64,000 nt of DNA from Candidatus Sulfomarinibacteraceae bacterium (GCA_963796455.1 CAWCLO010000004.1:672001-736000); one strand, 5' to 3'. Positions 3,680 through 21,904 are shown, counted from the first letter of the stretch. Notes: generated from the letters alone by a model not told the origin. A program made the numbers and translations.

Positions 3680-3725
3680 GGGTTCCACGTTGCATGGGTG
3701 CCGCGTTCACCATTGCGCCATTGTC
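3680..3725. repeat. Left-end GGGTGCCA-family motif doublet with a 30-bp extension
   Basis: GGGTTCCA 3680-3687 and GGGTGCCG 3696-3703. 3696-3725 (gggtgccgcgttcaccattgcgccattgtc) matches 11851-11880 (gggtgccacgttcacaattgcacagttgtc) at 25/30. Confidence 0.75.
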
Positions 3726-3935
3726 ATTTTCGAGAGATCGCTAAGTCATTGAGCGCCAGGTATTAGATTGTGGCGTTTGCTCGTGCAATGCCGTCTCCGG
3801 GTCATCAGGTGATACCTGCAAACCAGGCAAAACCATGCGTTCGGATGAAGGAAACCATCCAAACGGGCGATTGCGGTGAACAGTTCCTACTCCTATCGTT
3901 GAATATGAGGGCGTCTCGACACTATGGGGGTTGTA

Positions 3936-5222
3936 ATGAAATCAGCTTTTGTTCGGGGAATGCGGGTCGTTTTGTTTGCGGTGATCGCGATGGCTCTTTG
4001 CATTGCAGCCGGTCCCGCCGTGGCTCAAGGTCCGCCGATCTTCGACGTGCAGGAAATCGGCCCGGGGACCATCCCGGCAGACCTCAATAATCGGGGTGAG
4101 GTTGTCGGAGGAGCCAGGGGGCCCGTACCGGGCGGGTATGGATTTACCGCATTCTATTGGTTCGATGGGGTCCTCGTCGATCTTGGGGCCAACTGGGAAA
4201 ACGCGAGTTCTGCCCTGTCCGTGAACAATTCCGGCGTGATTCTCGGGACCGTTGAAGGTGTTGGCGATGAACTCGACAGGTTATTTGAAATCGATGCCGA
4301 AGGGAATATCAGTTACCCCGCGCCGTTCGACCCAGCGGTTGACGTGAGGGCGAAGGCGATCAACGATGAGGGCCAAATTGTAGGAACCCATAGCAGCACG
4401 AGTATTCCCTTTTTCTGGGATCGCACGACGGTGTATGACCTTGTCCCGAGTTGGGCGGTTCAGAGTTTTTTTGGCGGTCTCAATAACCTGGGTCAGGTCG
4501 CAGGGTCTTCCCGCGAGGATGGGTGCGGCAACTCCGGTTTTTTGTGGCAAATGAACTTTTTCACCGAAGTCGGCTCGTGCAACGATCGGATCGCGGCGAA
4601 TGACATCAACGACACCTCACAAATCGTTGGTTCCATGTTTTTTGCGGGTGAGAACCAGAAACACGCATTCGTTTACGAGGACTCACAGTTCACTGACCTG
4701 GGGGTTCTTGACGGCCAACAGGCAAGTGTTGCACGCAGCATCAATAACCAGGGTTGGATTGTCGGTGACTCGTCCTCGTCGATGCCACCGTCCGGGAGCG
4801 CGTTCATTTACATTGACGGGGTTATGTACGACCTCAACGACTATGTTTCTACCGAAAGCTGGCGTCTCACCAGGGCCCTCAAGATCAACGACCGCGGCCA
4901 GATACTCATGTTGGCCAATCTCACAACGAGCTTCGGGAGCACCTATCTCCTGCTGACACCCTCGGGAATTGATTCGATTCCAGGCCTCATTGAACTGATC
5001 GAATCCTACGAACTCCATCACGGTATCGAGCACAGTCTTTTGGTGAAGCTCGAGCACGCGAACGAGGCGGTCGCCGACGGAAACCTGAAACGCGCATGCC
5101 ATCGTCTCCAAGCGTTCATCAATCAGGTCAACGCACAAACGGGGAAGAAGATCACCGAAACCCAGGCGGAAGAGATTCTCGAAGCCGTCGACACTATTCG
5201 AGCTGCGCTGCCCTGCCCGTAG
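3936..5222 (+). CDS. Secreted HAF-repeat (DUF3466-like) protein with C-terminal FIMAH-like helical domain
   Basis: Signal peptide ending AVA-Q; repeated A..IN..G.IVG units with HAF/AF; C-terminal GIEHSLLVKLEHA...LQAFINQVNAQTGKKITETQAEEI. Start could also be 3924 or 3960. Confidence 0.8.
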   Translation: MKSAFVRGMRVVLFAVIAMALCIAAGPAVAQGPPIFDVQEIGPGTIPADLNNRGEVVGGARGPVPGGYGFTAFYWFDGVLVDLGANWENASSALSVNNSGVILGTVEGVGDELDRLFEIDAEGNISYPAPFDPAVDVRAKAINDEGQIVGTHSSTSIPFFWDRTTVYDLVPSWAVQSFFGGLNNLGQVAGSSREDGCGNSGFLWQMNFFTEVGSCNDRIAANDINDTSQIVGSMFFAGENQKHAFVYEDSQFTDLGVLDGQQASVARSINNQGWIVGDSSSSMPPSGSAFIYIDGVMYDLNDYVSTESWRLTRALKINDRGQILMLANLTTSFGSTYLLLTPSGIDSIPGLIELIESYELHHGIEHSLLVKLEHANEAVADGNLKRACHRLQAFINQVNAQTGKKITETQAEEILEAVDTIRAALPCP

Positions 5223-5243
5223 CGCACACCGTCGGTGCTTCAA

Positions 5244-5262
5244 TGGCACCCATGCATGTTCT
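5244..5262. repeat. TGGCACCCATGC motif
   Basis: tggcacccatgca 5244-5256 is the inverted complement of tgcatgggtgccg 3691-3703 (12/13), so the pair brackets the HAF gene. Confidence 0.75.
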
Positions 5263-5476
5263 TTTGGCACTCTCACTTCTAGAAAGTGAGAAATATTGTT
5301 GGAATTGCGTCGTCTAAGAGTCAAAGGAACTCTTTTGTGCGGACAACATCGGGTGCCGTTACCGTCGAGAAAGCGACCGAATCGGCAGAACGTGCCTCGT
5401 CTTTCCGCAAAATGGCATGCGTGGGTGGATCCGCGCGTATGAACATGCGAACCTGGCGTCACCTCAGGAGGTAACA

Positions 5477-6458
5477 ATGCCGACTCATCGTGAAGTTCGT
5501 CGATCCTTCGTTCTGATGACTGCCCTTGCCCTTTTCATCGGTTGCGGTGTCGTCCAGACCGAGCCCGAACCCTCGGCGGCCAAGGAAGTCGCGCCGCCCT
5601 TGCCGGCAATCGATTCGTTGGTCACGGCGGAGTGGCTGAGCGAGCACCTCGACGAACCGGATCTGGTGGTGCTGGACTGTACCGTGATGGTGGAGCAGGC
5701 CGAGGACGGCAGCATGCAGACCGTCAACGGCCGGGCCAACTATGACAGCGGGCATATTCCGTCCGCCGGCTTCGCGGATCTCATGGGAGATCTCGTCGAT
5801 GGTGAGAGCGATCTCGATTTCGCGATGCCGACACCTGAGGCCTTCGCGGCCGCCATGAGCGCGCTTGGCGTGAGTGACGATTCTCGAGTGGTCCTCTACG
5901 ACGCGATGGGCTCTTCGTGGGCGGCACGAGTCTGGTGGATGCTTCGCTGGATCGGCTTCGACCGCGCGGCTCTGCTCGACGGAGGTCTGGCGGCCTGGAC
6001 GGCCGAAGACCGTCCGCTGTCAACCGAGGCTGTCGCGCGGCCAGCGGGGACGCTGACCCCGGCTCCCCGGCCCGGAACTCATCGCCGATCGTGACGAGGT
6101 GCTCGCCGCGATTGATGACGCCGGAGTGCTCATTGTCGACGTCCTGCCGGAGCCGCACTACCGCGGAGAGATGGTCATGTACGCCCGCCCGGGTCACATC
6201 ACCAGCGCTGTGAACGTCTCGGTCATGGGGCTTTTTGACGAAACCGGCCATTTTCGATCGCAGGACGAGCTGGCCGCTCTGCACACGACCGATCACGATG
6301 CCCGCCACATCACATATTGCGGTGGCGGCATCGCCGCGTCGTCGAATGCCTTCGTCATGACCCGACTCGGTTTCACCAACGTCGCTGTCTATACCGCCTC
6401 GCTGCAGGAATGGACTGCCGATCCGGACCTACCGATGGAGACCGTGCCGGCGCAGTAG
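5477..6458 (+). CDS. Tandem-rhodanese sulfurtransferase (SseA/TST-like), probable lipoprotein; +1 frameshift near 6071
   Basis: AGGAGG RBS; LFIGC lipobox; LVTAEWL, YDSGHIPSA, AARVWWML and LLDGGLAAW in frame 1. RPGHI, active site YCGGGIAA and YTASLQEW in frame 2. Removing one C in cccggaactc restores PRPELIADRDEVL. Confidence 0.85.
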
Positions 6459-6616
6459 GGGAAGATGAGTATCTGGATCCGAAGATCCTGGATCGTTGCG
6501 TTGACGGCTACCAGAATGCCCAACTTCCCAAGATCCTCGGACCTGGAGCCTCTACACATGCCCCGTTCGCATCACCACAACCTATGGGCATTTGACAGGG
6601 TGACGGAAGAGTAAGA

Positions 6617-6679
6617 GGGCACCCATGTGAGAAAGCAAGATTGAATGATTACGAAGGGTGGCACCATGGCACCCATGGG
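6617..6679. repeat. TGGCACCC-family motifs (three copies)
   Basis: gggcacccatg 6617-6627; tggcacca-tggcacccatgg 6659-6678. Confidence 0.75.
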
Positions 6680-6770
6680 ACAGATGAATGTCAGGTCCGG
6701 AGTTCGAAGTTAGGTTAAACGGAACTGCGGAACTGCGGGCCTCGCTCCGAAAGAAAATGGCACCGAATAA

Positions 6771-7607
6771 TTATGGCGTCACCGATGACCACAAATCGGT
6801 GGTCCCCGACTCGAAACCATCGGCAAAGAGCGTCCCGGGCACGACCTCCTCGAAAGAGAAACCGACGCGGAGATCGTCGAAAAAGGTCGGTTGGCCGTTC
6901 ATCTGATCGCCTCGGATTGAGACGGTCAAGATTTTTCCGCCGCCGCTGTTCAGCAATTCGGTAGAGAATCCGTTGATCACCGGCAAGTTTGACTCGTCGA
7001 CGGGGTCGACCCAGAGCGTGACAACCTCGTCGTCGTCCAGGCCACCCGTGTTCGTGTCGCCGTACTCGATCCGGACGACGACAAGTTGCTTGTCGGCGGG
7101 CACGGTGCCACCGCTGGCGAGGCCGCTGATGCCGCCATTACCGACGATGTACGCTCCATCGCTAATCCCGAAAGAAAAGTCGACCGCCCCACCGCCGTCG
7201 AGTCGCACGAGCTCGAGCTCGAAAGTCATGTCTCCGTCGGCCCTCGGAGGAGCAATCAGGAAGCTCGCGTAGAACATATCGCCGTCGGTCTCATAGAGAA
7301 TATGTTCGGCCGAGGCGCTCCGTGTCGCGATGCGGGCTCCGTTGTCACCGGAAGGCCGGTCGTAGACGGCTTTGCCCGTGCCGGCCTCATCGTCGAGTTG
7401 AGTCTTGTTGACATAAAAGTTGCTGTTCGGAACAAGCGTCCAGTTGCCGATCAATCCGTCGGCCGGTCCCGCCGGGTCAGCCGAGATCAATACGTTGTCC
7501 GGATAGCCTGTGAAAGTATCCTCGATGATCGTTTGTGCCTGCAAAGAAGCAGCCGGCGATAACAGACACAGACCCATCACGCCTACCGGGATTCCGTGAA
7601 ATCTCAT
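6771..7607 (-). CDS. Secreted hypothetical protein with C-terminal LFADGFESG..W motif
   Basis: Signal peptide (...SLQA-Q); beta-rich body ending FFDDLRVG; terminal TLFADGFESGTTDLWSSVTP. Confidence 0.8.
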   Translation of the reverse strand: MRFHGIPVGVMGLCLLSPAASLQAQTIIEDTFTGYPDNVLISADPAGPADGLIGNWTLVPNSNFYVNKTQLDDEAGTGKAVYDRPSGDNGARIATRSASAEHILYETDGDMFYASFLIAPPRADGDMTFELELVRLDGGGAVDFSFGISDGAYIVGNGGISGLASGGTVPADKQLVVVRIEYGDTNTGGLDDDEVVTLWVDPVDESNLPVINGFSTELLNSGGGKILTVSIRGDQMNGQPTFFDDLRVGFSFEEVVPGTLFADGFESGTTDLWSSVTP

Positions 7608-7932
7608 TCGATTGCCCCCCGCGTTCGTTCAATCGTTCCTCGAATCGTGTCATCGGTGCCCGCCAGTTTCCTGGTTGTGGTCGGTGCCGACCGGGTTGAT
7701 CATTCGCGTTCGGCCTTGGTGACGTCCCGCCGGACAATCCAGGGGTGGGGCACGGTCACCTGAACTTGAGCAAGACCGGTGCCAACTTCTCCAGATTTCA
7801 ACAAGTGGTTTTGGAACAGCTATTTGGCTGCAGATGAGCCGCCGAGTTTCCGAACCCGGGCGAGTCGAGGAGCCACGCAGGGTGTGGCAACCCGACCCAC
7901 TCGGTCAGGTGCCGCGGTCGATCCACGAAAAA

Positions 7933-8008
7933 GGGTCCACCGATCACAACCTCACAATAAACACAGTTTCAGGCGATAGACATTGTGAGGTTGTGATCAG
8001 TGGCACCC
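7933..8008. repeat. ~76-bp hairpin element, copy 1 (REP/REPIN/MITE-like)
   Basis: Left arm gggt-ccaccgatcacaacctcacaat 7933-7958 pairs with right arm attgtgaggttgtgatcagtggcaccc 7982-8008 (one bulge, one mismatch); 23-nt loop aaacacagtttcaggcgatagac. Confidence 0.9.
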
Positions 8009-8031
8009 ATGCACCCATGTTCTGGCAATCA

Positions 8032-8060
8032 GGATGCCAGCTGGCACCCAGGTGGCACCC
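8032..8060. repeat. Empty palindrome GGATGCCA-GC-TGGCACCC plus an 11-bp-period doublet
   Basis: ggatgccagctggcacccaggtggcaccc; exact TGGCACCC at 8042 and 8053. Confidence 0.8.
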
Positions 8061-8113
8061 TTGTATGGGGTGCCCCTGATGCAGCTACACTGGCGGCACA
8101 TCGGAGGTGCCCT

Positions 8114-11100
8114 TTGGCCAGACTGAAGCTTTCTCATGCCCTAACGCTGTTGATCGTGGCGATGCCATGTGTGACCGCAGGAGCCCAGACCGCGCCTGAA
8201 AGCGCCATCGTTCCTGCGGAGCTCTTCTCCGGCCTCGAGTACCGCATGGTAGGGCCCTCCCGCGGGGGGCGGGTGACGACGGTGGCCGGTCACAGGGATC
8301 AGCTCGCGACCTTTTATATGGGTGCGAGCGGCGGCGGGGTGTGGAAGACGGAGGACGGCGGCCTGACATGGCGCAACGTTTCTGACGGCTCGTTCGCCAC
8401 GGGGTCCATCGGCGCTATCCGGACGGCCGATTCGAACCCCGATGTGGTGTATGTGGGAACCGGCTCGGACGGACTCCGGAGCAACGTCATCATCGGCAAA
8501 GGGGTCTACCGATCGGATGACGGTGGCACGACGTGGCGGCACCTTGGCCTCGAGGGCGTCGGCAATATCGGCGCCGTGCTGATCCATCCCGAGAATCCGG
8601 AGCTGGTCTACGTGGCGGCCATCGGCAACCCTTTCGCACCGAACCCCGAGCGAGGCGTCTACCGATCGCGGGACGGGGGGAGAGCTGGCAGAAGGTGCTT
8701 TTTGTGTCGGAAAAGACCGGCGCAGTGGATCTCGAGTTTGCCCCGGACGACCCGAGCAGAATCTACGCCTGCATGTGGCGCGCCGAGCGCAAGCCATGGA
8801 CCATCATCAGCGGCGGCCTCGAAGGCGGCGTCTACACTTCTCTCGACGGCGGTGACAGCTGGCAGCAGCTCACCGAAGGCCTGCCCAGCGGCCTGCGTGG
8901 CAAGGCGGATCTGGCCGTCTCGGCGGGCGATCCGGAGCGGGTTTACGTGCTCATCGAAGCGCCGGGCGACGAGGGCGGGCTGTACCGCTCCGACGATCGC
9001 GGCTCGAGCTGGCGTCAGGTCTCGGATTTCGACAAGATCCGCACCCGGCCCTTCTACTACTGCAATCTCGAGGCCCACCCCACAAACCCGGAGATCCTGT
9101 GGGCGATGAGCGAAGGCTTTTGGAAGTCCGAGGATGGGGGAGAGACCTGGAAGAAACAGAGAACACCCCACGGCGACAACCACGACATGTGGATCAATCC
9201 CTCGCACCCTGACCTGTTCATCCAGGCAAACGACGGCGGCGCCAACGTCACCCTCAACGGCGGCAAGACCTGGACGAGTCAGTACAACCAGCCGACTGCG
9301 GAGCTTTACCAGGTCGATGTGAGCGACGGCTTCCCATATCGCCTCTACGCCGGCCAGCAGGACAACACCACCATCTCGGTGCCGAGCTTTCCTCAGCGCG
9401 CCATGCCGGGAGGTCATACGGCTCTGTGGGAGGACCAGGGTGGATGCGAGACGGGCCCGGCAGTGCCCAAACCCGGCGATCCCGACATCGTCTACGCCAA
9501 TTGCAAGGGCCGATTCGGCGTCTTCAACCGACGAACCGGGCAGGAGCAGCAGTACTACGTGGGATTCGCCAACGTTTACGGCCACAACCCCAGGGATCTG
9601 GAGTACCGCTTCCAGCGGGTGGCGCCGATCCACGTCTCGCCCCACGATCCCGATCGCGTCTACCACGGCTCGCAGTTCGTGCACGTTACCGAGAACGGCG
9701 GCAGGACCTGGAAGACCATATCTCCCGACCTCACGGCGAACACACCGGAGACGCAGGTGGTTTCGGGAACTCCCATCACCATCGACGTCACCGGCGAAGA
9801 GCACTTCGCCACCCTCTACGAGATCCAGGAGTCACCCCACGAGCCGGGCGTCATCTGGGTAGGTGCCAACGACGGGCCGATCCACCTGACGCGCGACGGC
9901 GGCGCGACCTGGACCGAGGTCACCCCCGAAGGACTCGGTCCCCATGGCCGGGTGCAGACGATCGAGGTTTCGCCCCACGACCCGGCGGCGGCCTATGCGG
10001 CAATCCTCCGCTACCAGCTCGGTGACTTCTCGCCCCACGTCTACGCCACACGCGACTATGGTGCCAGCTGGTCGCGGCTGACAACCGGCGAAAACGGGAT
10101 CCCCGAAGACGTGCCCGTGCGGGTGGTACGAGAGGACCCGATGCGACCGGGGCTGCTGTACGCCGGTACCGAATTCGGCATGTACGTCTCCTTCGACGGC
10201 GGGGCGCAGTGGCAGGATCTGCAGCTCAACCTACCCGTCACACCGGTGACGGATCTCAAGCTGGTGCACAACGACCTGGTGCTTTCGACCATGGGCCGCA
10301 GCTTCTGGATTCTCTACGACCGGTCTCCCCTTCTCGAGGCCTCCGCCGAGCTCGCCACCGAAACCGCTCACCTGTATGCCGTGCAGGAAGCCGTCCGCCT
10401 CCACACCGGTGGCCGCTGGCGGCGACCGAGTGATGATGCAGCCCGCCCCCAGTACCCTGCGGCCGGTGCCAATATCAACTACTACCTCGCCGCGGAAGCG
10501 AACGGCGAGATGCGTGTGGAGATCTTCGACGACAACGGCACGCTTGTGCGCGAAATCGTGCCCGAGCCGCCGGATCCCGAGCAGGAATCCGAGTCCGAGG
10601 AGGTGGGGGAGGTTCGACTCCTCCGAAGATCCGGACGACACCATGGAGACGCCCGACGCGCCGCCCGAGAAACCTGCGCCCACACGCTGCAGACCACGGC
10701 GGGAATGCACCGCGTGGTTTGGGATCTGCGCCACACCGGCCCGACCGAACGACGGGTCAAAGATGAGGGTGAGGACGACGACGACGATCGCTCCAAGCTG
10801 CGCGGCCCCATGGTGCCGCCGGGCACCTACGAGGCGAGACTCCAGATGGGGGAGTGGAGTGCGAGACAACGATTCGAGGTGGTGATGGACCCGCGGGTCG
10901 AGGCCGAGGGCATCGGCCCCGCTGATGTCACGGTTCAAGCGGACTTCGCCCTCGCGGTCCGGGACGCCGTCAGCCAGGGCCAGAGATGCCGCGGATCGAA
11001 TCGAGGAGGCCATGAAGGGGCTCGACCAGGGCGAGCAGCGCGAACGGCTCGAGGGAATCAAGGCCAGGCTCATCACGCACGAGGTGCGCTATTCACAGCC

Positions 11101-11260
11101 CAAGCTGCTGGATCAGCTCGAGTACCTGTACCGCAACCACATCGGTGCCGACCAGCTGCCGGGGGCAGAGGCGCGAAGACGTTTCACAGTTCTCGAGGAC
11201 GAACTGGCAGTTCTTCTCGAAGACCTGGAACTCACGCTTAACGCCAAGAACCAGGATTGA
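8114..11260 (+). CDS. Secreted VPS10/sortilin-like BNR (Asp-box) glycosyl-hydrolase-type protein; frameshifted
   Basis: GGAGG RBS then TTG 8114; signal peptide; YRMVGPSRGGRV, many S.DGG.TW Asp boxes, PHGDNHDMWINP and LLYAGTEFG. Frameshifts at the G-run 8675-8680 and at 10977-10979, plus an apparent compensating pair near 10610/10682. Confidence 0.85.
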
Positions 11261-11296: not shown

Positions 11297-11430
11297 GGGT
11301 GACACGCTTTGCATTGTCTCGTCGTTCACGATAATGCAATGGAGAACCCGGTACCCATCAGCGTGACGTGTTCCTCCTATTTGAGGATGGCCTCCACGAT
11401 TTATGTTTGGTTGTGACCGTGGCACCGATG
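11297..11430. repeat. Degenerate motif cluster including a partial right arm of the hairpin element
   Basis: gggtgaca 11297, cggtacccat 11349; ggttgtgaccgtggcaccgatg 11409-11430 resembles ggttgtgatcagtggcacccatg at 7989-8011. Confidence 0.6.
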
Positions 11431-11444: not shown

Positions 11445-11836
11445 TCAGCGGGGCGCCGTTCGTCTCGACGCGCGCCGGGTCCCGATCGTGGAGAACTCGA
11501 CCGCATCGACCGGTCCCGACACCTCGATCACTTCCGCGTCCAGGCGCCGCCAGACCGCACCCTTCCCATCGACCTCGACTTCCGTGATCCGCAACGCTGT
11601 GTGAAGCCAGAAGTGGAAGGCGGTGACGCCCCCGGTCAGCGCCCTCACCGTCATGGTGTTGCTGCCGTTGATGGTTTCGGACTCGGGGTTGACGTCGAAG
11701 TCCAGACGGTAGTGGAGGACGTCGGTGCGCTCGTTGAGGGGATCGTTGATGCTCTTGAGCCGCAGCACTTCGGATTCTTCGGAGGATCCGGCATGGGCGG
11801 TCTTGGCACGCGAACAGACGTCGGTCGTGCCCGTCT
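11445..11836 (-). pseudogene. N-terminal-region fragment of an M1-family aminopeptidase-like gene
   Basis: Open frame ETGTTDVCSRAKTAH...DVLHYRLDFDVNPESETINGSNTMTVRAL...LRITEVEVDG resembles the M1 N-terminal beta domain. No signal peptide and no GXMEN/HEXXH domain. Confidence 0.65.
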
Positions 11837-11839
11837 CCA

Positions 11840-11880
11840 GGGTGCCACCAGGGTGCCACGTTCACAATTGCACAGTTGTC
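11840..11880. repeat. GGGTGCCA doublet (11-bp period) plus the 30-bp extension shared with 3696-3725
   Basis: gggtgcca-cca-gggtgcca-cgttcacaattgcacagttgtc. Confidence 0.85.
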
Positions 11881-11898
11881 AGGCTTCGTGAATCAAAA

Positions 11899-11979
11899 GG
11901 GTGCCGCCGATCGCAATCTAACCCACAACACAGTTTCAGGCGATAGACGTTGTGAGGTTGTAATCAGTGGCGCCCATGC
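11899..11979. repeat. ~76-bp hairpin element, copy 2
   Basis: gggtgccgccgatcgcaatctaacccacaacacagtttcaggcgatagacgttgtgaggttgtaatcagtggcgcccatgc. Loop aacacagtttcaggcgatagac is identical to copy 1; the left arm is degraded. Confidence 0.9.
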
Positions 11980-12004
11980 GGTCATATAATGAAATGAAGG
12001 GCAG

Positions 12005-12754: not shown

Positions 12755-12757
12755 GCC

Positions 12758-13295: not shown

Positions 13296-13312
13296 ACCAA
13301 TTCGAAGATGGT

Positions 13313-13332
13313 CGGCACCCATGTGGCACCCA
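13313..13332. repeat. TGGCACCC doublet (11-bp period)
   Basis: cggcaccc-atg-tggcaccca. Confidence 0.8.
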
Positions 13333-13390: not shown

Positions 13391-14170
13391 ATGCTGATCC
13401 TATTGTCCCCAGCCAAGAGTCTCGTCGAAGGACCTGCCGTCGACGGCCTGCCTGCCACCCAACCGGTTTTGCTCGATCAGACCGAAACACTGATGAAAAC
13501 GACTCGTCGTCTGAGCGCACCCAAGATCAAAAAACTGATGGGCGTCAGCGACCGACTCTCGGTCCTGAACCGCCAGCGCTTCCGGGATTGGACGACGCCC
13601 TTCACGACTGAAAATGCACGCCAGGCCGCGCTGATGTTCAGTGGAGATGTATACCGCGGTTTCGACGCAGCCACCCTCAGCGTCGAGGATCTCGCTTTTG
13701 CCCAGGACCACCTGGTGATCCTTTCCGGCCTTTACGGCGCCCTGCGTCCACTGGACCTGATCCAACCCTATCGCCTCGAGATGGGCACCCGGCTTAATAC
13801 GAGACGTGGCAAAGACCTCTATGCCTTCTGGGGCCGGCGCATCACGGACCGATTGAATGAGCTCACCGAGGGGCAGGAAGATCGCACCGTCGTCAACCTG
13901 GCCTCAAAGGAATACTTCAAAGCGGTCCAGCCTGAAAAACTCGCCGGTCCTCTCGTCACCCCGGTCTTCAAAGACGTCAAGGACGGCAAAGCACGATTCC
14001 TGTCATTCTTTGCCAAAGCGACCCGCGGCAAGATGGCGCGGTGGGCGATCCAGAATCGCATGTCCACGAAGGATCAACTGCGTGCCTTCGATGGCGGCGG
14101 CTACGTGTTGCAACCCGAACTCTCCGACGAGACGCACTGGGAGTTTCACCGCCCCGGAGTGAATTGCTGA
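13391..14170 (+). CDS. yaaA: Peroxide stress protein YaaA (UPF0246)
   Basis: GGAGG RBS; MLILLSPAKSL, FSGDVYRG, LSGLYGALRPLDLIQPYRLEMGT, VNLASKEY and SFFAKATRG. Confidence 0.93.
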   Translation: MLILLSPAKSLVEGPAVDGLPATQPVLLDQTETLMKTTRRLSAPKIKKLMGVSDRLSVLNRQRFRDWTTPFTTENARQAALMFSGDVYRGFDAATLSVEDLAFAQDHLVILSGLYGALRPLDLIQPYRLEMGTRLNTRRGKDLYAFWGRRITDRLNELTEGQEDRTVVNLASKEYFKAVQPEKLAGPLVTPVFKDVKDGKARFLSFFAKATRGKMARWAIQNRMSTKDQLRAFDGGGYVLQPELSDETHWEFHRPGVNC

Positions 14171-14291: not shown

Positions 14292-14315
14292 CCAGGGTGC
14301 GCCTCCAGGGTGCCA
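14292..14315. repeat. GGGTGCCA-family doublet
   Basis: ccagggtgcgcctccagggtgcca; exact copy at 14308. Confidence 0.75.
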
Positions 14316-14328
14316 ATGAATCTCTCGA

Positions 14329-14778
14329 CTATCGTTGGTTGCTGTTGTCCATGTCCGACATGATCATCCAGCGGCCGTCAGGGTCTTTATGCAAGGTGAG
14401 CGTGAACTTTCCGATATCGGGTTCGCCGCTGTGCCGCGAAAACCCTCCAATGATATAGCCCAGCGAACCTTCTGTCGCGAAAGCAAGTGCCCGGAGCACA
14501 AGCGCGCCGCCGCTATTTTTGTAGCGAAGTTCGATCTTTTTCCTGCCCCGGACCGGCGGCCTTCCACTCGAGAGGACAAAGCCATCTTCGGTGAAAAGGG
14601 CTGCAAGGGCTTTTTCGTCTTTGGCCCGCCAGGCTTCCTCGTAGTCAGTGAGAACGCGAGCGAGTTCCGGGGGGAGCGAGATCGTCGGCTCGGATGGTTC
14701 CTCTGCGCCACACACCGCGCCGCACCCGACCACCAAGGCCGCAGAAACGGCCACCAAAACCGGACCAACACTCTTCAT
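14329..14778 (-). CDS. Exported NTF2-like (DUF4440/YybH) protein
   Basis: Signal/lipobox LVVGC; YEEAWRAKD...LAALFTEDG, PVRGRKKI and GKFTLTLHKDPDGRWMI. Confidence 0.85.
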   Translation of the reverse strand: MKSVGPVLVAVSAALVVGCGAVCGAEEPSEPTISLPPELARVLTDYEEAWRAKDEKALAALFTEDGFVLSSGRPPVRGRKKIELRYKNSGGALVLRALAFATEGSLGYIIGGFSRHSGEPDIGKFTLTLHKDPDGRWMIMSDMDNSNQR

Positions 14779-14840: not shown

Positions 14841-14864
14841 GGGCGCCACACTCGAGTGGCACCC
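14841..14864. repeat. Mini-palindrome GGGCGCCAC-ACTCGA-GTGGCACCC
   Basis: Inverted motif pair with a 6-bp spacer between the two NTF2-like genes. Confidence 0.8.
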
Positions 14865-14873
14865 ACGCAATTT

Positions 14874-15239
14874 CTAGCTTTCCACGTGGAAGAGTTTGTT
14901 GTAGATCCGCCACTGACCGTCGGTGTTGAGGAGCGACAGAGTGTCCAGGAAGGTCATGCCCAGGTAGTCGTCGCGCACCCGGGCGACTGCTGTCTTCCCG
15001 GCGATGTCGAGCGAGACGACTTCGAGCCGTGCGTTCTCCCCCTTCTCCCGGGGAGAGGGCTGCTGACTTTCCACGAAACCGGCGAAATCGACCACCGACA
15101 TCTCGTGCAGCTCGCCGTTGATCTCGCCGGTGATCTTGGCATTTGGATGGAATGCTGAGTGGGCCTTCTCGCCGCTCGACTCGAACATGGAGTCGAAGTA
15201 GGTCTGGATCGTGTCCTTGATTGCTTGCTCGTCGCTCAT
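14874..15239 (-). CDS. NTF2-like (Lumazine_bd_2-type) protein
   Basis: GGAGG RBS; AIKDTIQTYFD, AFHPNA, IAGKTAVARV and FLDTLSLLNTDGQWRIYNKLF. Confidence 0.87.
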   Translation of the reverse strand: MSDEQAIKDTIQTYFDSMFESSGEKAHSAFHPNAKITGEINGELHEMSVVDFAGFVESQQPSPREKGENARLEVVSLDIAGKTAVARVRDDYLGMTFLDTLSLLNTDGQWRIYNKLFHVES

Positions 15240-15386: not shown

Positions 15387-16521
15387 TCAGGTTCCGGTGA
15401 TTCGGCCCAGCGCCTCGGCCAAAGGTGCGACTGCGCGGTCCGAGTCGCCCAACTTCTCCAGGCCGAACAAGCCCACACGAAACGTGCGGAAATCGGACGG
15501 TTCATCGCACATCAACGGGACACCGGCTGCGATTTGCAGGCCCTGTGCAAGGAACTTGCTGCCGTTCTGGATTTCCGGATCGTCCGTGTAATAAACGACC
15601 ACACCTGGCGCCTGGTAGCCTTCGTCGGCAACACTTTTGAAGCCGTGGCTCTGCAGAAGCTCACGGACTTTCTTACCCAGTTCCCACTGTTTTTCACGCA
15701 TGGTTTCGAGCCCGTAGGAACAGGTCTCCATCATGTTGTCCCGAAACGTTTTCAGTGCGTCGGTTGGAAGTGTTGCATGGTAGGCATGTCCGCCGTTTTC
15801 ATAGGCTCGCATGATGTCGAGCCATTTCCGCAGGTCACAGGCGAAGCTGTTGCTGGTGGTTTTGCCAACTCGTTCCAGTGCGTTCTCGCCCAGCATGACG
15901 AGGGCACCGCATGGAGAGGAACTCCATCCTTTTTGAGGGGCGGTGATCAACACGTCAACACCGCTGGCTTTCATATCGACCCACACACAACCGGAAGCGA
16001 CACTATCAAGAACAAATAAACCACCATGTTCATGAACGGCTTCGGCAACGGCGCGGATGTATTCATCCGGCAGGATCATGCCCGAGGACGTGTCCACGTG
16101 CGGCGCAAAAACGACATCCGGTTTTTCGAGTCGGATCGTATCCGTCACTTCGCCGATGGCGGGTGGCACGAACGGCGCCTCTGGTCCGGCAGCCCTCTGC
16201 CGGGCCTGCAGAACGGTGAGTCTCGTCGGTGAGGCCGCCCATCTCAATGATCTGAGACCAGCGGAAACTGAAAAAACCATTTCGGATCACCAGGCACTTC
16301 TGACCGGTGGCGAACTGGCGGGCAACCGACTCCATCCCGTAGGTGCCGCCACCCGGCACGACGATCACAGCCTCAGCGTTGTAAACGTCCTTGAGGGTGG
16401 TTGAAATATCCCTCATCACCTGCTGGAAAGTCTGTGACATGTGGTTCAGGGAGCGGTCGGTGAACACGACCGAGTATTCGAGCAGTCCTTCCGGATCAAC
16501 CTCAGGCAACAAGCTGGTCAT
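15387..16521 (-). CDS. Class V PLP aminotransferase (alanine-glyoxylate/serine-pyruvate type); frameshift near 16220
   Basis: GLLEYSVVFTDRSLNHMS, VPGGGTYGMESVARQ and RNGFFSFRW in one frame; HVDTSSG, LDSVASG, TAPQKGW (PLP lysine) and FRVGLFGLEKL in another. Confidence 0.88.
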
Positions 16522-16613
16522 TCGCGGGTTCCTCCTTGAGTTTTCTGGGTGGTCAAACGCAATGATCTCTTCAGGTTCACCCAGGAAACGCGGTTCTTCA
16601 TCGCCAGTATTGT

Positions 16614-16751
16614 AGTGGTACCCGTGGGAAGCTGCCCGACGTTTTCGGGGCGCCCGCTGTTTTCGCCAGGGCACCGATGTTCGCTACCACCCTCGATCGT
16701 CGACCCCCACATTGGCCCTGCTCCGTTGTAATGTTGTGATCAGTGCCACCC
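16614..16751. repeat. Motif variants and a third right arm of the hairpin element
   Basis: tggtaccc 16616; gggcaccgatg near 16669; cgttgtaatgttgtgatcagtgccaccc 16724-16751 resembles cattgtgaggttgtgatcagtggcaccc at 7981-8008. Confidence 0.7.
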
Positions 16752-16811: not shown

Positions 16812-19541
16812 ATGGCCCAGTGTCCATCATGCTCGGCGGAAATACCGGAGAGTTCGAACAGCTGTCCGAGCTGCGGTGCGGATCTTGATCTCTCGTCGCT
16901 GATGACCGAGACCGGGCTCTCCCAGGATGGAGTCCCCACGCAACCGCCGACGCCGGGACCGCAATCAGGCCCCTCGGCCGTAGGAATCACGAGCGATCTC
17001 CAGGGAGACGGCGACGAGCACCAACCCGGCACCATTCTCGGCGGGAGGTACCGTGTGGTTGGATTGCTCGGGCGCGGCGGCATGGGTTCGGTATATCGGG
17101 CCGATGATCTCACCCTCGGGCAGCCGGTCGCGCTGAAGTTTCTTCCCGATGAACTGGCCGCCAATCTCGATCGTCTCGAGCGTTTCCGGGCCGAGGTCCG
17201 GGTCTCCCGCCAGGTGTCCCACGCCAACGTCTGCCGCGTTCACGACATCGGTGAAGCCGACGGCAAGATCTTTCTTTCCATGGAACTGGTGGATGGAGGA
17301 GATCTCTCGTCGCTGCTCAAGCGGGTCGGTCGCCTGCCCACCGATCGCGGTCTGGAGATCGCCCGCCAACTCTGCGCGGGGCTGGCGGCGGCGCACGACC
17401 GCGGTGTGCTTCACCGCGACCTCAAACCGGCCAACGTGATGATCGACGCAGAAGGTCGGGTTCGAATCGCCGACTTCGGGTTGGCGGGAATCGCCGGCGG
17501 GTTCGAAGGATCCGAGATTCAAAGCGGAACGCCCGCCTATATGGCCCCTGAAACCCTGAGTGGGCGAGAGGTCACCACCCGATCCGACATCTACGCTCTG
17601 GGGCTGGTCCTGTACGAGCTTTTCACGGGAGCCAGGGCTTTCCGCGGCGCGAGTATCGCCGAACTCACCAAAAAGCACACCGAAGAGTCGGCCACCGATC
17701 CAACCGCGATCATCGGCGATCTCGACCCTCAGATCGAACGCGTGATCCTGCAATGCCTCGAGAAGGACCCGCTGGCGAGGCCCGAATCCGCGTTGGCCGT
17801 GGCGATGGCGCTGCCCGGCGGCGACCCGCTGGCCGCGGCCCTGGCCGCCGGTGAAACTCCGTCTCCCGAACTGGTTGCCCAGGCGGGGGCCGAGGGAACC
17901 CTCAAACCCTGGCAAGGCTGGGCCCTCCTGGCCTCGGTTGTGGTCTCTCTTCTTGCGTTTGTCGCCGCCAGCTCGTACCGGCATATCCTTTTTTTCGAGC
18001 CCATGGATCGCCCACCCGAAGTGCAGCTCGATCGGGCCGTCGAGTTGCTGACCACTCTCGGACTCGATGTTCCGACCACCGATCGGATCACGGGCTTTTC
18101 AGCCGACTTCAATATCCTCCGCGAGATCAACAATGACGGGGCCTCGCCTGAAGAACTTGACGCGCTTTCCGAAGGTGAGATCTCGGTGATCGGGTTCTGG
18201 CTCAGGGCGGCGCCATCGGAATTGGTGGCCGAGCGCATCTCAGGTCGGGTGTCGAGGACGCGACCGGCGCGAAACATGGCCGGCGAGCTCTTCGCCTCAT
18301 TCGACAGCCACGGTCGACTGCGTTTTCTCGACGTCGTGCCCGACGAAATGATGGCGTCAGATGGCTCGTCCCCGATGAACACCACAGAGGAGGCCTGGCA
18401 GGGCGTGTTGGCAGCGGCGGGTCTCGATTCCCAGGCATTTGAAGAGTCGATACCGCTTTGGTCTCCGCCCCGGTTTATCGACGAGCTTCGCGCCTGGTCA
18501 TTGCGGGGAGTGGGAGAAGGGGATCTCGCCGTCAATCGGATCGAGGTCGGGAGTCGATCCGGACGACCGGTTTATCTGCGGACCGGAACCTCCCTCGACG
18601 AGGCGGTGGGCCGATCGGCCTCGACCCGCGGATCAGACCTCGGACAGGCATTGAATGCCGGGCTCATCGTGGTGGTTTTGATCGTCGGTGGCCTCATCGC
18701 GCGCCGGAACCTACGCCGCGGTCGAGGAGATTTGCGGGGGTCGTGGCGCATGGCGGGGTTCGTATTCGCCCTCGGAATGACAAGCTGGTTGGTCTCGGCT
18801 CACCATGCTTTCGGCGCCGGCAGGGAGTTGAATCTTTTTGTGCTCGCGGCGGGCGGTTCGTTGTTCATTGCGGGTTTTGTGTGGTTGCTCTACGTCGCTC
18901 TCGAACCCGAGGTCCGGCGGCATTGGCCCAAACGCCTCATCTCCTGGCAGCGTATGTTGGCCAGGAGCTATCGCGATCCCTTGGTAGGACGGCACGTGCT
19001 GGTGGGTCTTCTCATCGGAACCAGCATGAATCTGCTTGTTGCGTTGATTGCCATCGTCTCCTCGATGCTCAATACTTCAGCCCTCGAACTCAGCGCGTCC
19101 GGGATGGCTCACCTGACCGGAACCGGGTTCGTGGTCGGGTCGGTTCTGGCCCAGGCCGGCCAGGCGATCTTCGCCGGCGTCTTCATCACGGTACTCGTCC
19201 TTCTCGTGAGACTCGTCCTGCGTCGGACCTGGGCCGCGGTGGCATTGTCTGTAGCAATTATTGTCGCGATGAATGTGCTCGGGTCGGAGGACCCATTCTG
19301 GGACGGTTTGGCCTCGACGGTCATCCTCGCCGCGGTCATGGCTGCGCTCCTTCGTTTTGGTCTGCTTTCTCTGATTGCTGTCGTCTTTGTCGTCAACGTT
19401 CTCCAGGTCATCCCGCAGACTATATCCCTGTCGGCGTGGTATTTTCCGGCGACAGCGATTCCGGTGCTCGTCGTGCTGGCTCTCGCGGCAGCCGCGTTCG
19501 CGGCCTCCCTCGGCCGCCAGTCGTGGTTCGGCTCAGACTAG
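16812..19541 (+). CDS. Hanks-type Ser/Thr protein kinase with N-terminal zinc ribbon and C-terminal multi-TM region
   Basis: CPSC...CPSC; GRGGMGSVY, VALK, HRDLKPAN, DFG, GTPAYMAPE and SDIYALG; extracytoplasmic loop followed by many hydrophobic helices. Confidence 0.93.
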   Translation: MAQCPSCSAEIPESSNSCPSCGADLDLSSLMTETGLSQDGVPTQPPTPGPQSGPSAVGITSDLQGDGDEHQPGTILGGRYRVVGLLGRGGMGSVYRADDLTLGQPVALKFLPDELAANLDRLERFRAEVRVSRQVSHANVCRVHDIGEADGKIFLSMELVDGGDLSSLLKRVGRLPTDRGLEIARQLCAGLAAAHDRGVLHRDLKPANVMIDAEGRVRIADFGLAGIAGGFEGSEIQSGTPAYMAPETLSGREVTTRSDIYALGLVLYELFTGARAFRGASIAELTKKHTEESATDPTAIIGDLDPQIERVILQCLEKDPLARPESALAVAMALPGGDPLAAALAAGETPSPELVAQAGAEGTLKPWQGWALLASVVVSLLAFVAASSYRHILFFEPMDRPPEVQLDRAVELLTTLGLDVPTTDRITGFSADFNILREINNDGASPEELDALSEGEISVIGFWLRAAPSELVAERISGRVSRTRPARNMAGELFASFDSHGRLRFLDVVPDEMMASDGSSPMNTTEEAWQGVLAAAGLDSQAFEESIPLWSPPRFIDELRAWSLRGVGEGDLAVNRIEVGSRSGRPVYLRTGTSLDEAVGRSASTRGSDLGQALNAGLIVVVLIVGGLIARRNLRRGRGDLRGSWRMAGFVFALGMTSWLVSAHHAFGAGRELNLFVLAAGGSLFIAGFVWLLYVALEPEVRRHWPKRLISWQRMLARSYRDPLVGRHVLVGLLIGTSMNLLVALIAIVSSMLNTSALELSASGMAHLTGTGFVVGSVLAQAGQAIFAGVFITVLVLLVRLVLRRTWAAVALSVAIIVAMNVLGSEDPFWDGLASTVILAAVMAALLRFGLLSLIAVVFVVNVLQVIPQTISLSAWYFPATAIPVLVVLALAAAAFAASLGRQSWFGSD

Positions 19542-19621
19542 ATAGGGAGTGCCGCCCGAATCGACACGTGCTTTTTTCAGGACGGCACCATGGTGGAGCC
19601 AGAGCGCAGGCACCTCACGTA

Positions 19622-20704
19622 TCAGCGCACGGCGTCGAAAATGTGCGTGTAGAGGAATTCGATCGGAGCGTTCTGCTCCTGCCGGCCTCGGGCGCCGGCG
19701 GTGACCACGACGACCATGTCAAGCTCGGGTGCGACAAAGATGTACTGGCCCTTGAAGCCGAATGCGCCGTAGACATCCTGCGTGCCGCTACCCCCGGGAG
19801 CCGGGGGCAGTACCCACCACCAATAGCCGTAACCGACGACCCGGTCACGCTGACCCTCGAGCTCGACCTGTCGTGACAGTGAGTCTGCGACCCAGGAGGT
19901 AGGCAGGATTTGTTTGCCGTCCCAACGCCCCTTTTGCAGGTACAACAGCCCGAGCTTGGCCATGTCCTTGGAGCGGAGGTGCAAACCACCCCCGGTATGC
20001 GGGTGCCCCTCGGCGTTGCGATACCAGCGGCTCTGCTCGATTCCCATTGGCGCGAACAGGTATTTTTCAGCAAAGGCGTCGGCGTGCATGCCGGTGCGCT
20101 CTTTGAGGATCGCGGAGGTCAGGATCACCGCTCCCGAGTCATAGCGAAAGCTCGTTCCGGGCTCAGCGATCATGGGTCGATCGAGAATGAACTTCGTCCA
20201 TCCCCGGCTCAGGCGGTTGAGCTGAAAATGAGGGGAGTCCGAACCGCGCTCGTGATAGTCCGTGCCGCTGCGCATGGTCAGCAGATCTTCGAGAGTTATC
20301 TCTCGCTTGCGCTCATCCAGGTTTTCGATGTCGTCGATTTCGGGAAAGAAGGCCAGGGCCCTCTCGTCCACCCCCTCGATCTTGCCTTGGCTGATGGCGA
20401 TACCGACGAGGGCCGAGGTGAAACTCTTGCTGACCGATTGCTGCTCGTGAAGCTCCTCGGCGCCGTGCCCGTTGAAGTACTCCTCGAGCACGAGCCGCCC
20501 GTTGCGAACGATCAGCAGACTGTGAATGTTGCGGATCTCGTTCTTACGCAGAGCTGCGACGAGGTTGTCGAGGCGTTCGCCGTCCAGACTCTGCTCGGCG
20601 GGAGTCGAGCGGATCCAGGACTCGGTCGGCCGGGGTGACTCCCCGGAGGCAGGAATGCAGGCCGAACAAACCAGGACGACCAGCAGGATTGCGGATCGGA
20701 TCAT
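19622..20704 (-). CDS. Serine hydrolase (class C beta-lactamase/6-aminohexanoate-dimer hydrolase family), exported
   Basis: SVSK (SxxK), LLTMRSG, FRYDS, GYGYWWW and GFKGQYIFV; signal peptide. Confidence 0.9.
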   Translation of the reverse strand: MIRSAILLVVLVCSACIPASGESPRPTESWIRSTPAEQSLDGERLDNLVAALRKNEIRNIHSLLIVRNGRLVLEEYFNGHGAEELHEQQSVSKSFTSALVGIAISQGKIEGVDERALAFFPEIDDIENLDERKREITLEDLLTMRSGTDYHERGSDSPHFQLNRLSRGWTKFILDRPMIAEPGTSFRYDSGAVILTSAILKERTGMHADAFAEKYLFAPMGIEQSRWYRNAEGHPHTGGGLHLRSKDMAKLGLLYLQKGRWDGKQILPTSWVADSLSRQVELEGQRDRVVGYGYWWWVLPPAPGGSGTQDVYGAFGFKGQYIFVAPELDMVVVVTAGARGRQEQNAPIEFLYTHIFDAVR

Positions 20705-20742
20705 GATCAGAAGATACGGCCTAGGGCATCCTCGGGTTTACC

Positions 20743-20766
20743 TGGGTGTCACGATGGTGGCACCCA
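20743..20766. repeat. Mini-palindrome TGGGTGTCAC-GATG-GTGGCACCCA
   Basis: Inverted motif pair between the divergent serine hydrolase and lipase genes. Confidence 0.8.
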
Positions 20767-20875
20767 AACTTGCTCTGAAACCATTGACCGTCGTCTGAAG
20801 AGCATGGAATCGAATCCTCCGGGGTGTGTTAGTCTCCGCACGAAAACCTTCCAGAAGATGAGAACGGAGCCTGAA

Positions 20876-21904
20876 ATGAGAACTATTTCTAATTCTGGCC
20901 CTGGCGCCGGAGTCGCGGCGATCCTTGTTATCGGGGCGGTCGTTCTCAGTGTTTGCGGGTTTGCACGCGCTGCGGACATCTATCCGGACACGATGGACCT
21001 GGCAGCGGAGGGGTTCTCGCTTCGCAACGCTTCGTTCCTCGTGTCGCTGGTGGAGGTCGCCGGGCAGAATGACGCAGGTCGGATCCAAACGCAGCTGGCT
21101 GCGGTAGGGTTTGTTCGTTCAACCTTGATCAAGGGCAGAGTCCTCCATTGTGTTCTCGCAGAGCACGAGGACTATCTGGTGTTGGCGTTCAGGGGCTCGA
21201 CGACGATGCAGGATTGGCTGACCGATCTCAAGTTCACCCAGTCGAAAAGCAAGCGCACCGGTTTGCCCGGTAAGGTCCACCGTGGTTTTTACAAGTCTCT
21301 GGACCAGGAATGGCCGCGTCTCTCGGATCTTCTGAAACATGCCGGTGAAAGTGGCAAGCCCATCTGGATCACCGGCCACAGCCTCGGCGGAGGGCTCGCA
21401 CATCTCGCCGCCATGCGGGCCGCGCAGGAGGGAATCGGGGTGGCCGGAGTTTACACCTTCGCATCACCGAGGGTGGGCAACGACACCTTCGCCTCAGCGT
21501 ACGATCGGGTCTACCGCGGCCGGTCATTTCGGGTCGTCAACTCCAACGACCTTGTCCCCCACGTGCCGCCCAGCCAGCCCGCCGAGGGAGTCTTCGGCCG
21601 CATCGTCGCACCGGTCGGAGACACCCTCGAGCTCAAGATGGCGGTCAAAGGCGCGTTCATGATGGTCCACTACACCCATGCTGGAGACCTCTATCTCTTC
21701 GAAGACACGGGCGCATTCGCCGGGAGGCGAGCCTACTCTGACCGAAGCGATGTCGGCTACTGGCAGCGAGTCGAGTCAGAATACGGCGATGGATCGTGGC
21801 TGGTCCTCGTGGACGACCAGGGAAAGATCGCGAGGAACCATTTCCTGGCTGCCTACATCAAGGTCCTTCACGAAGCGGCGCGAACCGCAGACAACACCGG
21901 TTGA
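20876..21904 (+). CDS. Class 3 lipase, secreted
   Basis: LAFRGS, DWLTDL, VHRGF, TGHSLGG nucleophile elbow, YTFASPRVGN and DLVPHVP. Confidence 0.9.
   Translation: MRTISNSGPGAGVAAILVIGAVVLSVCGFARAADIYPDTMDLAAEGFSLRNASFLVSLVEVAGQNDAGRIQTQLAAVGFVRSTLIKGRVLHCVLAEHEDYLVLAFRGSTTMQDWLTDLKFTQSKSKRTGLPGKVHRGFYKSLDQEWPRLSDLLKHAGESGKPIWITGHSLGGGLAHLAAMRAAQEGIGVAGVYTFASPRVGNDTFASAYDRVYRGRSFRVVNSNDLVPHVPPSQPAEGVFGRIVAPVGDTLELKMAVKGAFMMVHYTHAGDLYLFEDTGAFAGRRAYSDRSDVGYWQRVESEYGDGSWLVLVDDQGKIARNHFLAAYIKVLHEAARTADNTG

What the first reader, a model, noticed from the sequence alone, without database searches (positions are those of the whole stretch)
3680..21904. ~18 kb island of unrelated single-gene units punctuated by a TGGCACCC/GGGTGCCA motif: candidate undescribed cassette-capture system
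Seen: between the RND operon and lpdA-sucB-sucA lie about 13 functionally unrelated genes in mixed orientation plus gene fragments. Exact TGGCACCC/GGGTGCCA copies occur at 5244, 6667, 8001, 8042, 8053, 11840, 11851, 12758, 13324, 14308, 14857 and 20758, all intergenic or right at a gene junction. One-mismatch variants occur at 3680, 3696, 6617, 11297, 11420, 11899, 11968, 13281, 13313, 14841, 16616, 16744 and 20744. A given 8-mer on both strands is expected only about once in 18 kb. In 22-64 kb I noticed one copy (coding, 55929) and none intergenic, from a by-eye scan that was not exhaustive. Established: integrons (attC), pdif modules and REP/REPIN-RAYT systems use short recurring sites at cassette or insertion boundaries, but this motif matches neither attC (RYYYAAC/GTTRRRY) nor dif. 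Inference: the motif is the recognition end or scar of a recombinase or HUH (Y1) transposase encoded elsewhere that accumulates cargo at this locus, making an integron-like array with a different site.
Basis: partly seen in the sequence, partly recalled or inferred. Interest (0 to 1): 0.88.

Follow-up and report, generated by a model that had tools for sequence, protein, structure and literature searches.

The report
Transposase-end array of swapped genes
The repeated motif is the tip of the end-repeat of a little-studied single-strand DNA transposase (TIRYT); loose copies of these ends, mostly pointing the same way, sit between the genes of a roughly 120-kb stretch of horizontally shared genes, which suggests, but does not prove, an integron-like gene store run by a different enzyme.

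Summary
The motif marks a ~120-kb array that runs ~97 kb left of the window: 39 exact intergenic copies in 24 kb, against 19 in 733 kb elsewhere. It is the tip (4-nt cap + GGTGCCAC) of the terminal inverted repeats of one clade of TIRYT (Y1/HUH, subclass 2.1) transposases in this genus. Two window arms match such ends, one with a transposase 3' remnant. No intact cognate gene was found in this assembly. Relatives carry orientation-biased arrays, stacks of truncated arms, one allelic empty/filled pair at a tip, and window genes at 83-90% identity against 72-77% for core DNA. Arm-to-foreign-DNA joints peak 4 nt outside GGTGCCA (9 of 37). It is not an integron. Best model (~0.6): TIRYT acting in trans joins arm ends to DNA near existing arms and so moves cargo. 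Main rival: arms colonise an island filled by other means. No activity was shown. This scan noted TIRYT-bounded modules before on other DNA, including another piece of this genome.

The parts
3680..3687 (+). Degenerate tip stub; homology of the RND promoter with a relative ends about 5 nt before its core
   Evidence: L259 match ends at 3675
3693..3751 (+). Cap CATG + downstream (right) TIR arm of a CAC-clade TIRtron with ~25 nt of the transposase 3' end
   Evidence: 19/20 inner match to L091 arm; 56 nt at 80% to the element end; alignment
3960..5222 (+). Cargo: secreted protein, DUF3466 + FIMAH
5244..5254 (-). Bare tip with CATG cap, 21 nt after the cargo stop
5516..6458 (+). Cargo: rhodanese, split by a frameshift; 79-85% to homologues with other neighbours
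6617..6677 (-). Tip, arm of the L101 type (18/20 to an orphan arm of G006) and a tandem tip
6761..7925 (-). Cargo module: 269-aa protein of no Pfam family plus 350 bp upstream; homology with three relatives ends at 7923-7927, each next to a different arm type
7930..8011 (.). Inward-facing arm dimer (MITE/REPIN-like); ssDNA hairpin -24.9 kcal/mol, z -7.6; arm type found in 17 of 25 genus genomes
8032..8075 (.). Cluster of bare tips, including an 11-nt tandem pair (8042, 8053)
8000..11241 (+). Cargo: Vps10/BNR-repeat protein, frameshifted near its 5' end (range of two overlapping open frames)
11297..11320 (+). Degenerate arm (14/20 to a CAC-clade arm)
11445..11826 (-). Gene fragment: residues 29-146 of a 599-aa protein encoded elsewhere in the genome (40%), starting just outside the tip at 11840
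11837..11880 (+). Tandem tip (cap CCAG twice) + right arm of the L059/L091 type; an intact element has a near-identical duplicated end
11896..11978 (.). Second, decayed copy of the arm dimer (84% to the 7930 copy; folding not significant, z -0.67)
11993..13298 (+). Cargo module of two ORFs (12206-12754, 12843-13295), 83% to G021, with tips near both ends; a bare tip at 12758 lies between the ORFs
13313..13331 (-). 11-nt tandem tips
13391..14170 (+). Cargo: YaaA peroxide-stress protein
14308..14315 (+). Bare tip in a convergent gap
14329..14778 (-). Cargo: DUF4440 protein
14841..14864 (.). Minimal inverted tip pair with an 8-nt spacer
14874..15239 (-). Cargo: Lumazine_bd_2 protein
15387..16624 (-). 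Cargo: class-V aminotransferase (frameshifted), 86-90% to five relatives; homology with G001, G005 and G008 ends at the tip-like site 16616-16626
16726..16751 (-). Single arm of the dimer type (18/20 to an orphan arm of G006)
16902..19541 (+). Cargo: membrane Ser/Thr kinase
19622..20704 (-). Cargo: PF00144 (beta-lactamase family) protein; 84% to a G004 copy that has arms on both sides
20744..20765 (.). Inverted tip pair, hairpin z -3.7; last tip of the array
20876..21904 (+). Cargo: class-3 lipase, last gene before lpdA

Best explanation
Shown by sequence: the motif is the conserved tip of the ~30-bp terminal inverted repeats of one clade of TIRYT transposases (HUH-Y1 core with a C-terminal extension, 322-340 aa). 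Each arm is a 4-nt cap (often CATG), GGTGCCAC, and a subfamily-specific inner part. Orphan arms, arm dimers and bare tips of many subfamilies are concentrated in large accessory-gene arrays. CATG-capped tips point one way within an array, and arms are joined to foreign DNA at the outer edge of the cap. Inferred: a TIRYT supplied in trans binds arms, probably through its helix-turn-helix, nicks at the cap and holds that end as a 5'-phosphotyrosine. It transfers the end to a 3'-OH at a variable position that is usually 10-60 nt inside an existing arm of the same orientation. The far end is variable (one-ended transfer). Whatever lies on the inner side of the moving arm goes with it: a transposase fragment, an arm stub or genes. 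Existing arms attract new events, so the locus grows into a polar array that gains, loses and reorders genes, including genes exchanged between species of the genus. It works like an integron array but uses HUH chemistry and has no fixed integrase or attI site.
For: 57 of 60 distinct genus TIRYT genes have an IR pair matching at >=19/25, beginning GGTGCCA or a close variant. The 10 with GGTGCCAC tips form one side of a 100/100 branch among 56 rows. 19 of 140 island intergenic tips match a TIRYT inner arm at >=14/20, against 1 of 219 coding controls and 1 of 294 intergenic sites elsewhere. A transposase 3' remnant lies at window 3697-3751. Junction offset from GGTGCCA has its mode at 4 nt (9 of 37; 14 of 37 at 3-5). 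In 11 informative rows of 42 printed, read by eye, truncated elements meet a tip through 3-5 non-native bases. 373 of 422 arms keep their tip, and tandem-tip spacing peaks at 11 nt. G006 has stacks of up to 8 truncated arms of different subfamilies in one orientation. CATG-capped tips split 116 to 6 by orientation over 26 stretches. A G001 allelic pair differs by a 4.8-kb two-gene unit between directly repeated capped tips. Two arm+gene units (1.5 kb at 95%, 1.0 kb at 90%) start at the cap in different outer flanks. Homology ends fall within 10 nt of a tip in 30 of 110 cases against 15.0 expected. Window cargo is 83-90% identical to copies in genomes whose core DNA averages 72-77%. HUH enzymes forming a 5'-phosphotyrosine and a 3'-OH is stated in PMC8266576 (passages).
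Against: No CAC-clade transposase was found in this 90.5%-complete assembly; the best hits are its three CAG-clade genes at 36-40%. No transposase family was found among 84 array proteins scanned. Only 36 of 140 island tips carry a recognisable arm. 80 of 110 homology ends are not at tips; the ends are not independent, BLAST can extend through a shared tip, and 12 of the loci were picked by the motif itself. 23 of 37 junction offsets fall outside 3-5 nt. In one five-gene block that is collinear in G008, tips sit between genes 2 and 3, so arms can arrive after the cargo. The second G001 indel is bounded by a 34-bp repeat of another family, which host recombination would explain. Only one clean empty/filled pair exists and its direction is unknown; no clean empty site was found for 59 intact elements. 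Polarity counts include alleles of one locus. No circle or enzyme activity was observed.
Confidence: 0.6

Rival explanations
1. Passive colonisation. The island is filled by ordinary horizontal transfer. TIRYT spreads only short arms and dimers, like REPs/REPINs, which pile up near older arms and cause local deletions; genes are not moved by the enzyme.
For: Tips interrupt a block that is collinear in G008. Most homology ends are not at tips. Repeated arms at one cargo end (window 7925) could be successive arrivals. Other repeats and group II introns also accumulate in the arrays.
Against: A 4.8-kb indel runs exactly cap-to-cap. Arm+gene units start at the cap in different flanks. One ~630-bp gene module is duplicated within a G001 contig with tips at both ends. 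The same genes recur in arm arrays of different species with new neighbours.
Confidence: 0.28
2. TIRYT seeds the arms, but modules are exchanged by host homologous or microhomology recombination between arms, for example after DNA uptake.
For: Directly repeated arms bound the G001 indel, and the second indel lies between 34-bp repeats. Same-orientation arms favour deletion.
Against: Many joints join a cap to DNA with no arm homology, such as transposase interiors, an intron and gene ends. Arms at a shared cargo end are often of different subfamilies and share only the tip.
Confidence: 0.08
3. An integron/CALIN or another site-specific recombinase array.
For: Polar array, mostly single-gene units, hairpin-forming dimers, and a broken IntI fragment in the same contig.
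Against: An attC scan finds 11 similar attC sites next to the IntI fragment but only 3 unrelated hits in the array, 2 of them inside genes. No resolvase was found. The motif equals TIRYT ends.
Confidence: 0.02
4. A transcription-factor or sigma-54 binding site.
For: TGGCAC resembles the sigma-54 -24 box (recalled, not from a call); 11-nt tandem spacing.
Against: Only 1 of 40 exact island copies has TTGC at the -12 spacing, and tip density is highest in convergent gaps (8.6 per kb against 4.0-7.8).
Confidence: 0.02

Closest known systems
TIRtrons / TIRYT (Di Nocera et al. 2013, PMC3733652, passages read) = TnpA_Y1 subclass 2.1 (Quentin et al. 2018, PMC6006769, abstract, section 15 part 1 and section 31 read)
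   Same: Y1/HUH gene with NHYH and Y[IV]HLNP motifs and a C-terminal extension, flanked by TIRs; orphan TIRs occur singly, as dimers and in clusters.
   Different: The tip is GGTGCCA(C/G), not GGGGWSAS; more distant homologues mostly keep GGGGTCAG. The passages read describe no 4-nt cap, no polar gene arrays, no arm stacks and no cargo movement, and give no mechanism.
REP/RAYT (REPtrons; TnpA_REP biochemistry in PMC8266576, passages read)
   Same: A Y1 enzyme acts in trans on dispersed short repeats; dimers resemble REPINs; ssDNA cleavage and strand transfer.
   Different: No GTAG tag. Arms are clustered in gene arrays rather than spread genome-wide. The joint is fixed at the arm's outer edge rather than at C|T sites on either side.
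Integrons / CALINs
   Same: Polar arrays of mostly single-gene accessory units separated by short, sometimes hairpin-forming sites; the sites are targeted by group II introns (group IIC-attC introns, PMC3001079, search listing only).
   Different: No attC, attI or IntI at the array; cargo lies in both orientations and often keeps promoters; junction structure is variable; the enzyme is HUH.
IS91/ISCR and Helitron-type one-ended capture (recalled)
   Same: An HUH enzyme with one precise end and one variable end that carries neighbouring DNA.
   Different: Those use Y2 enzymes with oriIS/terIS ends. The three IS91-like copies in this genome end in a different sequence.
Subclass-2.1 TnpA_REP linked to prochlorosin genes (bioRxiv 10.1101/2020.03.09.984088, whole text read)
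   Same: The same transposase subclass is proposed to drive gene diversification; truncated copies lie among gene clusters.
   Different: [quoted passage not shown]

Membership tests
TIRtron/TIRYT TIR repeats (subclass 2.1) | Repeat equals the terminal inverted repeat flanking a Y1 transposase gene | tested here: met
   13 intact CAC-tip elements in relatives; window arms 3696 and 11851 match at 19/20 and 17/20
TIRtron/TIRYT TIR repeats (subclass 2.1) | HUH and Y-NP motifs (NH[VYF]H, Y[IV]HLNP) | tested here: met
   P0001 has NHYH and YVHLNP and passes PF01797
TIRtron/TIRYT TIR repeats (subclass 2.1) | C-terminal HTH (Bac_DnaA_C-like) | tested here: inconclusive
   Bac_DnaA_C E 7e-4, below cut-off, in the genome's own CAG-clade protein; only a weak hit to another family in the CAC-clade protein
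TIRtron/TIRYT TIR repeats (subclass 2.1) | GGGGWSAS tip (described for some or most TIRs, not all) | tested here: not met
   Tip is GGTGCCAS, 2 of 8 positions different; filed as a variant
TIRtron/TIRYT TIR repeats (subclass 2.1) | Cognate transposase in the same genome | tested here: inconclusive
   Not found in a 90.5%-complete assembly; three CAG-clade genes present
TIRtron/TIRYT TIR repeats (subclass 2.1) | Enzyme cleaves and transfers the TIR | not testable with these tools
   Needs a biochemical assay
Integron/CALIN | attC sites between cassettes | tested here: not met
   Simple pattern scan: 11 sites at a separate locus as positive control, 3 unrelated hits in the array
Integron/CALIN | IntI/attI at the array | tested here: not met
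   Only a broken fragment below cut-off, 185 kb away; none among 84 array proteins
REP/REPtron (GTAG) | GTAG-tagged hairpin dispersed genome-wide | tested here: not met
   Arms carry no GTAG tag and are clustered about 60-fold
IS91/ISCR | Y2 transposase with oriIS end equal to the motif | tested here: not met
   IS91-like ends differ
pdif / Xer modules | 28-bp dif-like sites | not tested
   No dif search was run; identity with TIR tips makes it unlikely

The most novel reading that the evidence does not exclude
TIRYT arms form a dedicated, self-targeting gene-acquisition platform, an HUH-driven functional counterpart of integrons. It builds 100-kb polar arrays, exchanges genes between species of sediment Acidobacteriota, and has group II introns specialised to its sites.
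Probability: 0.4. Interest if true: 0.87.

Novelty: new variant of a known kind. Interest (0 to 1): 0.7.

Why it matters
Subclass 2.1 occurs in about 15% of the genomes sampled by Quentin et al. (PMC6006769), and the sections I read give it no demonstrated function. This genus supplies a predicted cut position (outer edge of the 4-nt cap), a predicted target rule (near existing arms) and matched enzyme-arm pairs, which makes the family directly testable. If cargo transfer holds, it is a second route to integron-like gene arrays, one that attC-based tools would miss.

Tried and rejected
(1) IS608-like target tetranucleotide: rejected, because the 4 nt outside GGTGCCA are not native to the joined DNA. 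(2) A second fixed cut leaving headless arms: no peak; 373 of 422 arms are full. (3) Replichore-driven polarity: majority orientation agrees with GC skew on 10 contigs and opposes it on 5. (4) IS91 ends, attC/IntI, resolvase and sigma-54. (5) Empty sites for intact elements: one unclean pair from 59 elements, none in the own genome. (6) Cognate enzyme for the dimer-type arm: the one Y1 gene I checked beside it is a short REP-type protein. (7) Public reads: 12 runs held only 5-14% of the words. Four were laid at 85% likeness; all were contigs of relatives. A few joints pair arms with other window genes (8013 to 15365; 11879 to 3693; 6630 with 11840), but their sides are ~30 nt or unstated, so they are not evidence. 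(8) Rfam finds nothing in the window. (9) Of 26 candidate arm+cargo pairs most were introns, coding matches or alleles; of 4 followed up, one was a duplicated transposase end and one matched only 200 bp, and both were dropped. (10) One search was poorly aimed and shows only one close RND-gene match among 24 relatives. (11) Literature searches found no description of TIR-bounded gene arrays; TIRYT/TIRtron in the relevant sense appeared in two papers. Subscription journals are not covered, and I read no supplements or figures (Di Nocera Fig. 9 may list further TIR types).


Full report
Observation. All listed copies are present, and 13 in the window exceed every one of 100 shuffles. The window is C4:672001-736000 of a 5.02-Mb, 90.5%-complete genome. 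The closest named records for the transposase are Holophagae/Thermoanaerobaculia, one of them Ca. Sulfomarinibacteraceae, so I infer Acidobacteriota. The 8-mer has 226 genome copies, as expected from composition. With my own gene caller, 81 copies are intergenic. Of these, 39 lie in C4:575-694 kb against 0.6 expected from the background rate. The array therefore includes the RND operon and extends ~97 kb left of the window. Among 84 array proteins scanned (81 left of the window plus 3 in it; genes under 80 aa or crossing locus borders were left out), functions are mixed and no mobility family appears.

Identity of the motif. The genome has three long Y1 genes; two have ~34-bp TIRs beginning GGTGCCAGG. 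Across the genus, 57 of 60 distinct TIRYT genes have TIR pairs with a shared tip and subfamily-specific inner parts. Ten have the tip GGTGCCAC and form one side of a 100/100 branch in a 56-row tree; four rows were left out for weak IR or short length. Outside this family, homologues with a detectable IR mostly have GGGGTCAG, which fits the published GGGGWSAS. Window arms at 3696 and 11851 match CAC-clade downstream ends, and the first continues into a transposase 3' remnant. In the island, 19 of 140 intergenic tips match a known inner arm against 1 of 219 controls; 36 of 140 match a known arm or an orphan arm of a relative; the rest are bare or decayed tips. The lead to TIRYT came both from my and from earlier scan notes; I tested it here on this motif.

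Genus-wide arrays. The palindromic form exceeds its reversed control in most of the 24 genus relatives and not consistently in the 16 genomes of the second family. RTGGCACCCAT is clustered and polar: 29 to 7, 16 to 1 and 83 to 9 by strand in three genomes, against 0-1 for the control. Polarity belongs to the array and not to the replichore. DNA just left of the window's array is collinear with the far end of the G006 array. Many arrays end at contig breaks. In seven relatives the ~130 nt beyond lpdA show no tip, so the lpdA border is not shown to be conserved.

Junction anatomy. Where a tip abuts DNA whose unjoined form is known, identity most often stops 4 nt before GGTGCCA (mode 9 of 37). 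Truncated elements meet tips through 3-5 non-native bases (11 informative rows of 42). The cap thus travels with the arm. Caps vary: CATG stands at 5 of 13 upstream and 2 of 13 downstream arms of intact CAC elements. The other end is variable. Arms nearly always keep their tips (373 of 422), tandem tips peak at 11 nt with a broad tail, and G006 junctions hold stacks of up to 8 truncated arms of different subfamilies in one orientation. At window 7925, four genomes join the same cargo end to different arm types within ~20 nt, just inside an older degenerate tip. I read this as attraction to existing arms (inference).

Cargo. Window genes recur in relatives with other neighbours and often other arms. 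Their identity (83-90%) reaches or exceeds the best core segments sampled from the same genomes (means 72-77%, maxima 76-83%), which points to horizontal exchange, though the core sample is small. Homology ends are twofold enriched at tips (30 of 110 against 15.0; simulated p 7e-5, inflated by non-independence and by partly motif-chosen loci). Allelic contigs of G001 differ by a 4.8-kb unit between directly repeated capped tips. Two arm+gene units begin at the cap in different flanks. Against this reading: tips interrupt a block collinear in G008, a second indel lies between unrelated repeats, the cognate enzyme was not found here, and the reads were uninformative.

Mechanism. Shown: identity of the ends, clustering, polarity, cap-edge joints, variable gene content. 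Established for related enzymes: 5'-phosphotyrosine formation and strand transfer on ssDNA (PMC8266576 passages). Inferred: arm binding through the C-terminal domain, a nick at the cap, one-ended transfer near older arms, and carriage of genes. I put identity as TIRYT ends at about 0.95 and the full model at 0.6.

Comparison. The repeats are a variant TIR family of TIRtrons (PMC3733652; PMC6006769). The array fails the integron, REP and IS91 tests, although it may work like an integron. Bertels et al. (bioRxiv 10.1101/119735, passages) report group 1 RAYTs as among the most IS-like groups (6.3% duplicates) and the passages mention no cargo role. My searches found no published TIR-bounded gene arrays. 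Earlier notes of this scan report similar modules on other DNA; they are AI notes and not independent support.

Side finding. Two ORF-less group II intron types in relatives insert inside arms. One sits after GGGTGCCACGT or a near variant at 5 sites in G006 (Rfam RF02005). The other sits within the tip on the opposite strand at 3 sites in G008 and 1 in G014 (identified by its ends, not by Rfam). The G006 type is absent from this assembly.

Verdict: real feature, new variant of a known kind, interest 0.70; the integron-analogue reading has probability 0.4.

Noticed in passing
L138:9323-10111, L139:2824-3613, L121:8321-9110 (G006); L074-L075 (G008): ORF-less group II introns that insert repeatedly inside TIRYT arms, in two types on opposite strands; a parallel to group IIC-attC introns. 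An ORF-bearing group II intron in G006 (L138:2991-4858) inserts after GTAG-type REP hairpins.
   Followed up: partly
G000:C4:865137-878941 (partly L258): A genuine integron remnant: 11 similar attC sites beside a broken IntI fragment, 170-185 kb from the array.
   Followed up: partly
G000:C7:279901-281563 and 285081-286913, C6:37096-38933: Three IS91-like elements with an oriIS-like end; the coding TGGCACCC inside them is the W-H-P codon run, unrelated to the array motif.
   Followed up: partly
G000:C4:1143253-1147449 (L046, L057): Two 97%-identical CAG-clade TIRtrons, one with a 119-bp duplication of its 3' end; evidence of recent TIRYT activity in this genome.
   Followed up: partly
window 22030-22270: An unrelated dispersed repeat with dozens of genome copies lies between the array's last gene and lpdA; it could mark a rearrangement or a mis-join.
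   Followed up: no
G001:C3/C6, G014:C6/C8, G006:C16/C20: Arrays at contig ends point towards the break from both sides with compatible GC skew, hinting at a convergent array with a central growth point.
   Followed up: no
G000:C4:636-645 kb and window 5516-14170: Several redox or oxidative-stress genes in the array (peroxiredoxin, thioredoxin, glutathione peroxidase, YaaA, rhodanese); enrichment not tested.
   Followed up: no
G001 contigs C3, C11, C12: Near-identical (97-99%) allelic versions of one array within a single assembly, showing population-level variation of the array.
   Followed up: partly
G000:C1:39997-40080 and C3:353531: A few arms and arm dimers lie outside the arrays.
   Followed up: no
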